Shown: in pieces, positions 56,698 to 60,199 of the stretch
Numbering within the stretch: the stretch's first letter is position 1
Layout: each line of letters starts with the position of its first letter
NCBI GenBank assembly: GCA_964016885.1
Contig: OZ024743.1
Location: forward strand, 263,128,001 to 263,192,000
Source: Eledone cirrhosa
Lineage: Eukaryota
DNA length: 64,000 nt
Reading direction: 5' to 3'
Position numbers and translations under genes: made by a program
Notes under the pieces: model-generated
What the model saw: only the letters and a program-made list of their open reading frames with translations
What the model was told of the DNA's origin: nothing
Database searches by the model: none

Positions 56698-58400
56698 GTT
56701 AGTATATGACATCTTTCTCTTTCTCTTTCTCCCCCTACTTTCTCTCTCTCTCTCTCTCTCTCTCTCTTTATATATATATATATATATATATATATATATA
56801 TATATATATATAGTGCCTGCTTACCCCCTCTTCACTATCACGTGATACTGAAAGTTGAGCTTAGTACTGTAATGGTGAGGTCAAACCAAGACAGCAGGTT
56901 CGTACTGGCCTATTCCGAAGAGGCTAATTCCTCGCTGATGAAGCTGCTCTTAGCCAATTACGTAATGCTTAATAGCATTACCTAATTTCTGTGCACGCCA
57001 GCTCCATATGGACTCTCACCAGCAGATGGAGTAGCAAAAAGTAATGCATTAGTTTCGGGCCAGAAATTCAAATTCTATACCTACACGAAATCGTTTTTCT
57101 CACTATTTAATCTATAAGTATGCACCCTGCTTTCCTGTTGGTTGATATCTTAATGATACTGGCTTAATTAAAGCATTGAGTAAGTGGGAAAACGATCGAA
57201 GGTATTTCGGTCATATTGGACGACATAGCTTCAGTATTATATATATATATATATATATATATATATATATCAATAATATTAATAAATGGAAACTATCTTT
57301 ATAAAACCATATTTATTTTATTATATATATTTCAAGGGTACCAACATTTTTGGTACGCTCTAATCAGATAAAATACAAAAGTTGTTTTACAGATAGTGAC
57401 ATATTCAAAACAAGAACTTCGCGTTTTGAGTTCTATATATTTAGTGAAAGAGTGAAGAATAACATGGTCGGCTGTACAAAAAAGGTTTTATCTACAGTAT
57501 TAACAATTGTTTCATTGATAAGGTGAGTCTAAAGGCCGCTAATCACTCGAAGTTGCGTCACTCGACCTTAAATACAATGTGTTTCTCTGATCAAATCATC
57601 GGAATACTACTATTACTCCAATAATAACCTGCATGGGAATTCTTTCTCGCAAACTCGCTACCTAACTAAGGAAACCTCTTGTTGAGTCAAACAACGCCGT
57701 ACGTTAAAACTATCCATTGTACAGAGTACTCACAACCTCTAACTGGACTACCTAAAACGATAACGTGTTATCCCATATATATATATTATATATATATATA
57801 TGAGTGTCTTGTAGTTTGCTTGAAACAAGCAAACAAGTAAAGTGTAGAAAACTGTTTTGTTTGAAAGCTACCACTATGTGAATTGGACGTCTAAAGAATG
57901 CAAGGTAACATCCCAACATCATTGTTTTCATCTTAGTTTTACTATTTTCCGTCCAACTCAGGTTGTGGTAGCTTTCAAACAAAACATTATTTTCTACCAA
58001 TTTTTCTCTCTCTCTCACTCTCTGTCTCTCTCTCTCTCTCTCTCTCTCTCTCTCTCTCTCTCTCTCTCTCTCTCTCTCTCTCTCTCTATATATATATATA
58101 TATATATATATATATATATATATATATATATATAACGAAGGAAATGTGGTAAGGAACCAGATGGGCCATAACGCACCATAACGCTTGTTTCAAGCAAACT
58201 ACAAGACACTCATATATATATAATATATATATATGGGATAACACGTTATCGTTTTAGGTAGTCCAGTTAGAGGTTGTGAGTACTCTGTACAATGGATAGT
58301 TTTAACGTACGGCGTTGTTTGACTCAACAAGAGGTTTCCTTAGTTAGGTAGTGAGTTTGCGAGAAAGAATTCCCATGCAGGTTATTATTGGAGTAATAGT

Positions 58401-58513
58401 AGTATTCCGATGATTTGATCAGAGAAACACACTGTATTTAAGGTCGAGTGACGCAACTTCGAGTGATTAGCGGCCTTTAGACTCACCTTATCAATGAAAC
58501 AATTGTTAATACT
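58401..58513 (+). ncRNA. Hammerhead-like motif with extended stem II and a CCGAUGA core (mirror at 57496-57608, minus)
   Basis: AGTATT-CCGATGA-TTTGAT...(~75 nt)...ATCAAT-GAAA-CAATTG-TT-AATACT. Confidence 0.55.
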
Positions 58514-58633
58514 GTAGATAAAACCTTTTTTGTACAGCCGACCATGTTATTCTTCACTCTTTCACTAAATATATAGAACTCAAAACGCGAAGTTCTTGTT
58601 TTGAATATGTCACTATCTGTAAAACAACTTTTG

Positions 58634-58695
58634 TATTTTATCTGATTAGAGCGTACCAAAAATGTTGGTACCCTTGAAATATATATAATAAAATA
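58634..58695 (+). ncRNA. Degenerate hammerhead motif with a CUGAUUA core
   Basis: TATTTTAT-CTGATTA-GAGCGTACCAA aaatg TTGGTACCCTT-GAAA-TATATA-TA-ATAAAATA. Confidence 0.55.
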
Positions 58696-60199
58696 AATAT
58701 GGTTTTATAAAGATAGTTTCCATTTATTAATATTATTGATATATATATATATATATATATATATATATAATACTGAAGCTATGTCGTCCAATATGACCGA
58801 AATACCTTCGATCGTTTTCCCACTTACTCAATGCTTTAATTAAGCCAGTATCATTAAGATATCAACCAACAGGAAAGCAGGGTGCATACTTATAGATTAA
58901 ATAGTGAGAAAAACGATTTCGTGTAGGTATAGAATTTGAATTTCTGGCCCGAAACTAATGCATTACTTTTTGCTACTCCATCTGCTGGTGAGAGTCCATA
59001 TGGAGCTGGCGTGCACAGAAATTAGGTAATGCTACTCGTTCATATATATATATATATATATATATATATATATATATATATATATATATATATATATATA
59101 TATATAACGAATGAATGATTAACACGGATAAGCGATACAACAAGGTTTTATTCCAAGCATTAACATATATTTCATTGCCTGGTATGCAATCAATTGTATC
59201 TTAAAATCGCTATCTACAATGTTACTGCGAAACTCGGTTTTAAATACTGCTTATACCAGGCAAATTATCAAAACACTGATTTTGGAATCAGCGATACAAC
59301 GGTTTTGCACTGAGTCATATAAACGTTAAGATGAAAGACAAAATAAATAAATTTAGGGATTCATATGTTTGGTGGGCAATACTTGAAGTAGGGAAATACA
59401 AAATAAAATAATATGATAATAAAAGTGAAGAATGAGATATACAAAGTATGTTATAAAATAAAATGAAACAACGCCGCACTCTTAAAATCCTCCACTGTAC
59501 AGATTACTCGTAAACTTTCCTTCGATAATATCGTTTACTCTGATTGACACATACGCACACACACATACACACACATACACACACAGACATATATATATAT
59601 ATATATATATATATATATATATATGTATATATATATACATATATGTTTATATATATATATATTGGCAGATTCGTTCGTCGGGTAAAATTCTTTGCGGTAT
59701 TCGTTCCAGAACTTGGTGTTCTGATTTCAAATTTGAGTTCAGAGCCTGAAGCCAATTCCTCTTTCTTTCTGAGAGAAATCGGCTGACGTCAAACCTTGAG
59801 AGAGGTGGGCTCTACCACGTTTAAAACACCCAAGGCACGTTCTGACGCAAAGTGCTCCTACCCTTCCATTAGAAGTTGAGGGCTTCGTAGGCCTAGCATA
59901 TCGAATATATGGAGTACACCTTTTCTTTAATACATTTTGAATAGAAAACACTACTTTGTTATAGATTTATTCTTTTTATTAAGTTTTTAGAAATATTTTG
60001 GTATAGTTTCCTTGCAGTTTGTTTTGAACAGTAAAATTCCTAGATATATCGTCAAGGTTTCTTGATCCTCATAGTCATATGATCGGGATGAAATGATGTT
60101 AGTGTGTGTTGTTGCCCTTTTATAGCAGGCAAGGATATTATAATTTATATAGACATCATCACCGAAATTTCAATTTTGACCGTTAAATTTCCACATTAT

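What the first reader, a model, noticed from the sequence alone, without database searches (positions are those of the whole stretch)
56973..59043. About 855 bp of host intron copied in inverted orientation behind a 48-nt retroelement end: apparent template jump onto local sequence
Seen: 58136-59043 is bounded by (TA)n on both sides. On the minus strand it reads as an almost exact copy of + strand 56973-57830, including its internal (TA)n tracts, followed by gttatggtgcgttatggcccatctggttccttaccacatttccttcgt-(TA)n. That short terminus is not in the source arm but matches the element end at 30758-30797 (acgaaggaaatgtcgtaaggaaccaggcggaccataacgc). Inference: reverse transcription began on an element 3' end at the (TA)n target, then switched at a GC microhomology to neighbouring sequence. 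The template polarity equals the sense of the SLC26 pre-mRNA, so nascent host RNA (or the local + DNA strand) may have been copied. This would be a route by which such elements create local inverted duplications of host DNA.
Basis: partly seen in the sequence, partly recalled or inferred. Interest (0 to 1): 0.75.

Follow-up and report, generated by a model that had tools for sequence, protein, structure and literature searches.

The report
Penelope insertion with mirrored flanking DNA
A very common Penelope-type jumping gene left two tiny end pieces in an intron with an 858-base backwards copy of the neighbouring DNA between them, likely because the new DNA folded back onto its own strand during insertion, an outcome already known for human LINE-1 and seen here at a few other sites.

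Summary
The inverted copy is real: 58183-59034 copies 56973-57830, with 2 substitutions and 2 TA-length changes. The junction is unique in the genome, and each arm carries one derived base, which argues against an assembly artefact. The short end is the tail end of a Hydra-clade Penelope-like element (20,152 exact copies). This is therefore a standard two-armed insertion with both arms tiny and local DNA between them. Either arm could have primed, so matching SLC26 polarity does not show an RNA template. Best reading: the short cDNA folded back onto its own exposed strand (about 0.6); a jump to nascent pre-mRNA remains possible (about 0.2). Of 331 sampled arms, 28 join non-element sequence and 4 clearly join an inverted local copy (7 by a mechanical rule, against 10 of 1360 control points); 1 of 70 unselected copies does. 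Both breakpoints lie in small perfect hairpins (post hoc). Known for L1 and R2; not found in print for Penelope elements in 6 searches. This scan noted similar mirrored flanks elsewhere in this genome. Reads did not cover the junctions.

The parts
56973..57830 (+). Source segment in the SLC26 intron; a patchwork of older repeat pieces
   Evidence: Family copies L225-L228 run through 56973, so this is the uninterrupted original.
58183..59034 (-). Inverted copy of 56973-57830
   Evidence: Only two full-length matches in G000 among the scored candidates.
58135..58178 (-). Arm 1: last 44 nt of the element's 80-nt tail (first reverse-transcription start site); 2 mismatches to natural copy L044
58179..58184 (+). 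6-nt slip repeat of the arm end; its last 2 nt (GC) are the microhomology with source 57829-57830
   Evidence: The same slip occurs in L091, L092, L097. The left-junction 20-mer occurs once in the genome.
59032..59042 (+). Arm 2: element's second terminus (pseudo-LTR end), 10 matching nt plus a variant last base; first 3 nt shared with source 56973-56975
   Evidence: Chance of the 7 non-source matching nt at a fixed place is about 3e-5; 44 of 70 unselected insertions end in this arm.
58087..58134 (.). (TA)24 target tract, left side
59043..59106 (.). (TA)32 target tract, right side
56962..56981 (.). Perfect 8-bp hairpin; the far breakpoint 56973 lies in its loop
57814..57834 (.). Perfect 9-bp hairpin; the near breakpoint 57830 lies in its 3' arm
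57831..58086 (+). Uncopied spacer between source and target tract (an older imperfect palindrome and a CT tract)
56322..56697 (+). SLC26 (prestin-like) coding frame ending at a GT donor; the 5' limit of the exon was not determined
   Evidence: phmmer E 5e-11 to prestin; frame
63442..63552 (+). Next SLC26-like exon (MAYALLA...GLY...GTSR), inferred from motif and splice sites
   Evidence: not searched against a database
30758..30957 (.). Ordinary two-armed insertion of the same family, for comparison

Best explanation
This is one insertion of a Hydra-clade Penelope-like retrotransposon into a TA microsatellite, with both element ends cut very short and an inverted copy of the neighbouring 858 bases between them, likely made when the left cDNA end folded back onto its own DNA strand. 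Shown: two outward-facing element termini at the family's two fixed end points, a slip repeat, microhomologies of 2 and 3 nt, and a unique local inverted copy. Inferred steps: (1) the enzyme cuts both strands of (TA)n and primes cDNA on both ends from two start sites 80 nt apart. (2) The left cDNA slips after 44 nt and comes off the RNA. (3) The opposite strand is resected or displaced, and the 3' end pairs by GC about 300 nt back on its own + strand. (4) A host repair polymerase or the reverse transcriptase itself copies 858 nt. (5) The new end joins the 10-nt right cDNA at a 3-nt microhomology and the gaps are filled. Which polymerase did the copying is not known.
For: Two-arm build: 44 of 70 unselected copies end in arm 2. 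A Penelope protein cuts and extends both strands from two start sites that define the tail (PMC11167929). Same geometry (inverted, upstream of a truncated tail arm, with spacer) at L032 (44 nt, 555 nt back, 98%) and L126 (99 nt, 97 nt back, 83%). Fold-backs across the far TA tract at L061 and L071. At L070/L071 the short arm repeats the neighbouring insertion's own junction, which points to a local, most simply DNA, template. Inverted local copies start at 7 of 28 non-element junctions (4 after removing ambiguous ones) against 10 of 1360 control points, P 1e-8 and 1e-4. Only 1 of 28 is direct, in a tandem array. Precedents: L1 fold-back inverted duplications (PMC10191854; 10.1101/2024.12.14.628481) and R2 snap-back onto nearby rDNA (PMC11371274).
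Against: Direction of synthesis cannot be read from the sequence. 858 nt is much longer than the 52-220 bp L1 fold-backs in PMC10191854 and needs about 1.2 kb of exposed strand. The slip just before the switch continues on element sequence in L091 and L097, so the reverse transcriptase was probably re-annealing and could equally have jumped to RNA. Only 2 of 28 junctions show exactly this same-side geometry (P 0.02). The 28 junctions were classed by eye from script output, and most samples were enriched for truncated arms. The near breakpoint lies inside a hairpin stem, an awkward place to prime. 20 of the 28 junctions had no local source within 1.5-5 kb.
Confidence: 0.6

Rival explanations
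1. The reverse transcriptase jumped from the element RNA to the nascent SLC26 pre-mRNA, copied 858 nt of intron, and was then joined to the second arm.
For: For synthesis from the left arm the template polarity equals SLC26 sense. The source starts about 275 nt after the splice donor. A slip just before the junction suggests a re-annealing enzyme. One such pre-mRNA co-insertion is reported for L1 (PMC10191854 section 11). Both ends lie in hairpins, as for a folded single strand.
Against: The polarity is equally predicted by DNA fold-back. There is no splice junction or other RNA-only mark in the copy. The L070/L071 double fold-back needs no transcript. Gene context of the other cases could not be determined.
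Confidence: 0.2
2. A single-stranded piece of the resected lower strand was cut out at the two hairpins and ligated between the two cDNA arms, and the gap at the source was then refilled.
For: Both breakpoints fall in the only two perfect stems of 8 bp or more between 55,000 and 59,600; short perfect hairpins cover 0.8-1.3% of bases. It gives the same product.
Against: The hairpin coincidence was noticed after the fact. Such hairpins are often junctions of older insertions here. I saw no comparable hairpins at the L032 and L126 breakpoints by eye (not counted formally).
Confidence: 0.1
3. Synthesis began at the 10-nt right arm, which invaded the lower strand at the 56973 hairpin loop and ran to 57830, where the new strand folded on itself and was released.
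For: 3-nt microhomology at the loop edge. The new strand would end in a 5-bp self-hairpin at 57830.
Against: It needs invasion 2 kb away across the break into the strand that resection would remove.
Confidence: 0.05
4. Assembly or fold-back read artefact, or two independent insertions of one composite element.
For: No read or contig spanning either junction was obtained. All parts of the source are repeats.
Against: Element termini sit at both ends at the family's fixed points. One substitution is derived in the source (family G 8 of 12) and one in the copy (family G 9 of 13). The left junction occurs once in 3.0 Gb. Other copies of the parts are at most 91% and 88% identical and partial. There is no N in the window.
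Confidence: 0.05

Closest known systems
Hydra clade of C-terminal-endonuclease Penelope-like elements (Craig et al. 2021, PMC8557442; passages and section 11 read)
   Same: RT plus C-terminal GIY-YIG with DKT, RW[KR], CxCx5C, no CCHH; (TA)n targets; inverted 5'-truncated arm with a one-sided tail.
   Different: The tail is 80 nt here against 30-40 bp given for Penelope elements in general. No canonical hammerhead was found. Local inverted duplication of flanking DNA is not in the passages read.
L1 insertions with fold-back inverted duplication, or with co-inserted local pre-mRNA (Nam et al. 2023, PMC10191854, section 11; bioRxiv 10.1101/2024.12.14.628481, passages)
   Same: Retrotransposon insertion joined to an inverted copy of adjacent DNA at about 2-bp microhomology; rare (3 cases, 0.3%, in Nam); attributed to remodelling of the break ends.
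   Different: There the duplications are 52-220 bp with small loops on the reciprocal end. Here 858 nt with a 352-nt loop lies between two reverse-transcribed arms, in an assembled genome with both arms diverged.
Snap-back 5' junctions of R2-mediated insertions (PMC11371274, passages)
   Same: The cDNA 3' end primes extra synthesis on itself or, less often, on nearby target DNA before joining.
   Different: Engineered R2 at rDNA with one primed strand; here a natural element priming both strands.
Host DNA captured between Penelope pseudo-LTRs in Adineta vaga (Arkhipova et al. 2013, PMC3846280, parts 1-3 of 5)
   Same: Host sequence framed by Penelope termini.
   Different: There the captured DNA, including an intron-containing gene, moved in trans to a new site between full pseudo-LTRs. 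Here it is a local inverted copy between 44- and 10-nt remnants.

Membership tests
EN+ Penelope-like element | Single ORF with RT and GIY-YIG endonuclease | tested here: met
   L044:2779-5136, a 786-codon open frame running through the tail sequence, with DIESYY, YRDD and VIY-x12-YIG. Read by motif only: Pfam and PDB searches gave 0 hits.
EN+ Penelope-like element | Inverted 5'-truncated arm with a tail on one end only | tested here: met
   44 of 70 unselected insertions end in the second terminus, 80 nt inside the first; the finding has both termini.
Hydra clade | CxCx5C linker, DKT, RWK-type motif, no GxKF/Y, no CCHH, CxxC and CxH near the C terminus | tested here: met
   CNCPDRSIC, DKT, RWR (not RWK), no GxKF/Y, one Cys between VIY and YIG, CNLC, CKH.
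Hydra clade | Insertion into (TA)n | tested here: met
Hydra clade | Canonical hammerhead ribozyme in the pseudo-LTR | tested here: not met
   No hammerhead hit in Rfam for L038 and L018; no CTGAnGA..GAAA pattern in L044. A divergent form is not excluded. Because of this I call the family Hydra-type by protein motifs only.
Hydra clade | Phylogenetic placement with described Hydra RTs | not tested
   No reference Hydra sequences were fetched.
Neptune clade | CX2-5CxxC linker and CCHH motif | tested here: not met
   Neither is present. My first guess of Neptune is withdrawn.
Fold-back inverted duplication at a retrotransposon break | Inverted copy of adjacent DNA, source retained, short microhomology at the joints | tested here: met
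Fold-back inverted duplication at a retrotransposon break | Template is DNA, not RNA | not testable with these tools
   There is no splice or editing mark, and polarity fits both.
Template switch to local pre-mRNA | Copy is antisense to the host transcript across many events | tested here: inconclusive
   True for this one site if the left arm primed; gene context of the other sites is unknown.

The most novel reading that the evidence does not exclude
Penelope reverse transcriptase can leave its own RNA after a few dozen bases, copy the nascent host transcript from one small hairpin to the next, and write it back antisense into the same intron. A family of more than 20,000 copies would then have seeded hundreds of long, near-perfect double-stranded RNA stems in host pre-mRNAs.
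Probability: 0.15. Interest if true: 0.72.

Novelty: new variant of a known kind. Interest (0 to 1): 0.4.

Why it matters
The site shows that the two-ended Penelope insertion passes through a state with two free ends that can copy flanking DNA, as now described for L1. It adds local inverted duplication to what Penelope elements do to genomes. At 1 of 70 unselected copies (95% interval 0.04-7.7%) and at least 20,152 copies, tens to hundreds of such events are plausible but were not counted. That would give a natural, large test set for DNA versus RNA templating. Here the product is an 852-bp near-perfect inverted repeat in an SLC26 intron, predicted to form long double-stranded RNA in the pre-mRNA; no effect on the gene is shown. 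On its own the locus is a rare by-product of a known process.

Tried and rejected
Reads: no RNA holder listed. One search skipped 58135-58240, so the left junction was not covered. One search was swamped by related repeat copies and showed no piece with the right junction. These runs give no verdict and may not come from the same individual.

Neptune assignment: rejected. Pfam did not recognise the element ORF or the SLC26 exon; PDB did not recognise the ORF. The Rfam search found only chance microRNA hits on TA tracts.

Multi-copy composite: rejected. DNA searches scored only 40 of 6487 and 40 of 634 candidates, but the exact junction pattern was counted genome-wide.

Dropped or ambiguous rows: L168, L219 and L280 pass the mechanical rule but their arms belong to other repeat families. 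L317 starts 6 nt before the junction. L052's palindrome starts 37 nt after it. L274 is a direct match in a tandem array. Wider flanks of about 5 kb each side for 17 loci gave no new source, apart from distant SINE copies for L178. Many hits were point variants or diverged subfamilies, not truncations.

Not attempted: gene orientation at the other sites, because there is no annotation. PMC12016303 (passages) held nothing relevant. The search returned 0 papers.

Full report
Observation. The copy at 58183-59034 is the reverse complement of 56973-57830. It has two substitutions and two TA tracts shorter by 2 and 4 nt (arms also). It lies between (TA)24 at 58087-58134 and (TA)32 at 59043-59106, in an intron that follows an SLC26 exon (prestin, E 5e-11; next exon inferred at 63442-63552). 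The 826-nt core has two full-length matches in G000, the source and the copy; other hits cover only its first 360 nt or so at up to 91% (40 of 6487 candidates scored). The other end also has two perfect matches, the rest at 88% or less (40 of 634 scored). The 20-mer across the left junction occurs once in 3.0 Gb. All four family copies examined (L225-L228) run through 56973, so the left segment is the original. At 57577 the family base is that of the copy (8 of 12), and at 57657 that of the source (9 of 13), so each arm probably carries one later mutation. That argues against an artefact. It gives 0.25% divergence, roughly 0.04-1.3 million years if the calibration in PMC13282606 (passages) applies, which is not established for this genome.

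The element. The short end has 20,152 exact copies. [quoted passage not shown] Its motifs match the Hydra clade of Penelope-like elements as defined in PMC8557442 section 11: DKT, RWR, CxCx5C, no CCHH, CxxC and CxH. No canonical hammerhead was found and no tree was built, so the assignment rests on motifs. In 44 of 70 unselected insertions (the first 30 and 40 further places) the far end is an inverted arm that begins 80 nt inside the first terminus; the median insert is 190 nt. This fits the in vitro result that a Penelope protein cuts and extends both strands from two start sites that bound the tail (PMC11167929, parts 1-2 of 4).

The right end, 59032-59042, is that second terminus. Three bases are shared with the source and seven further bases match the element, with a chance of about 3e-5 at a fixed place. 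The left arm is 44 nt of element plus a 6-nt slip repeat that also occurs in L091, L092 and L097. The insert is thus a two-armed insertion with both arms tiny and 858 nt of local DNA in the middle, joined at microhomologies of 2 and 3 nt. Either arm could have primed. If the left arm folded back it had to use the + strand whichever way the gene runs. The polarity argument for pre-mRNA therefore carries little weight.

Recurrence. I examined 331 anchored arms: 70 unselected; 50 of 53; 30 of 285; 21 of 21; 50 of 137; 50 of 323; 30 of 39; 30 of 55. The last 20 of the set and of the set were picked by their junction letters to avoid TA ends and known variants. Classed by eye arms join non-element, non-simple sequence. 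In 7 of these an inverted local match of at least 30 nt and 80% starts within 4 nt of the junction, against 10 of 1360 random control points (P 1e-8). Four are clear. L032 (44 nt) and L126 (99 nt) have the same geometry as the finding. L061 and L071 mirror the far flank across a TA tract, and at L071 the arm itself repeats the neighbouring insertion's junction. Three (L168, L219, L280) are ambiguous because the mirrored piece belongs to another repeat family. One is direct, in a tandem array (L274). Twenty had no local source. Among unselected copies the rate is 1 of 70 (0.04-7.7%). The finding is by far the longest case seen.

Hairpins. The far breakpoint lies in the loop of a perfect 8-bp hairpin (56962-56981) and the near one in the arm of a perfect 9-bp hairpin (57814-57834). 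These are the only two such stems between 55,000 and 59,600, and short perfect hairpins cover 0.8% of the window and 1.3% of the sampled loci. This was noticed after the fact and was not tested on the other cases. It suggests a single-stranded template but does not tell DNA from RNA.

Mechanism. Most likely (0.6) the left cDNA slipped, came off the RNA, paired by GC with its own exposed + strand about 300 nt back, was extended 858 nt, and joined the right cDNA. Rivals are a jump to nascent SLC26 pre-mRNA (0.2), capture of a cut-out single strand (0.1), invasion from the right arm (0.05), and artefact or independent insertions (0.05). The anatomy is shown; the order of steps, the template and the polymerase are inferred. 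Reads gave no verdict.

Comparison. L1 insertions with fold-back inverted duplication (3 cases, 0.3%, 52-220 bp) and one co-insertion of local pre-mRNA are reported in PMC10191854 (section 11; its Extended Data figure was not seen). Inversions and inverted duplications at L1 break ends are reported in 10.1101/2024.12.14.628481 (passages), snap-back onto nearby target DNA for R2 in PMC11371274 (passages), and host DNA between Penelope termini in PMC3846280 (parts 1-3 of 5). Six literature searches showed no report of local inverted duplication by Penelope elements; supplements were not read and subscription journals are not covered. Earlier notes of this scan describe similar mirrored flanks at other retroelements in this genome and call the genome octopus-like; I did not check those loci or the species.

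Verdict. A real, unusually long and clean example of a known class of outcome, in an element class where I did not find it described: new variant of a known kind, interest 0.4.

Noticed in passing
L070/L071 (G000:C6:67324600-67325050): Both ends of a break in a TA tract appear to have folded back. 24 nt repeat the neighbouring insertion's own junction and 117 nt mirror the other flank, joined at a short microhomology; no new cDNA is needed.
   Followed up: partly
L099 (G000:C1:344538000-344539500): Two facing arms about 1.1 kb apart stop at the same element position and share the same TA-rich filler, as expected if both ends copied one chimeric RNA carrying host flank (a possible 5' transduction).
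   Followed up: no
window:56813-57237: An older repeat family (83-89% to copies elsewhere) carrying a CTGATGA motif and a conserved small hairpin; possibly a hammerhead-bearing element. Its fold was not tested.
   Followed up: partly
window:57270-57790: Two further multi-copy TA-anchored repeat ends inside the copied segment; one has very high depth in public runs.
   Followed up: partly
window:57844-57997: Imperfect 154-nt palindrome (72%) in the spacer, not seen in the other fetched loci.
   Followed up: no
L105-L123: Recurrent deletion of the tail between two copies of a 9-nt repeat shared by the two start sites (9 of 21 hits, read by eye), suggesting a preferred slip between the two termini.
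   Followed up: no
L066, L129, L178, L216, L282: Truncated arms joined directly to other repeat families, including a SINE; these could be switches to other RNAs or deletions at the target.
   Followed up: partly
window:8104-8828 and 48762-49757: A 350-nt inverted pair at 96% identity 40 kb apart; a reverse-transcriptase-like frame (YRDD) lies near 7600-7700, possibly another Penelope family.
   Followed up: no
window:4859-5427 and 5597-5765: Further long palindromes next to TA tracts, typical of two-armed insertions.
   Followed up: no
window:997-1187 and about 15 other places: An abundant SINE-like repeat of about 180-190 nt.
   Followed up: no
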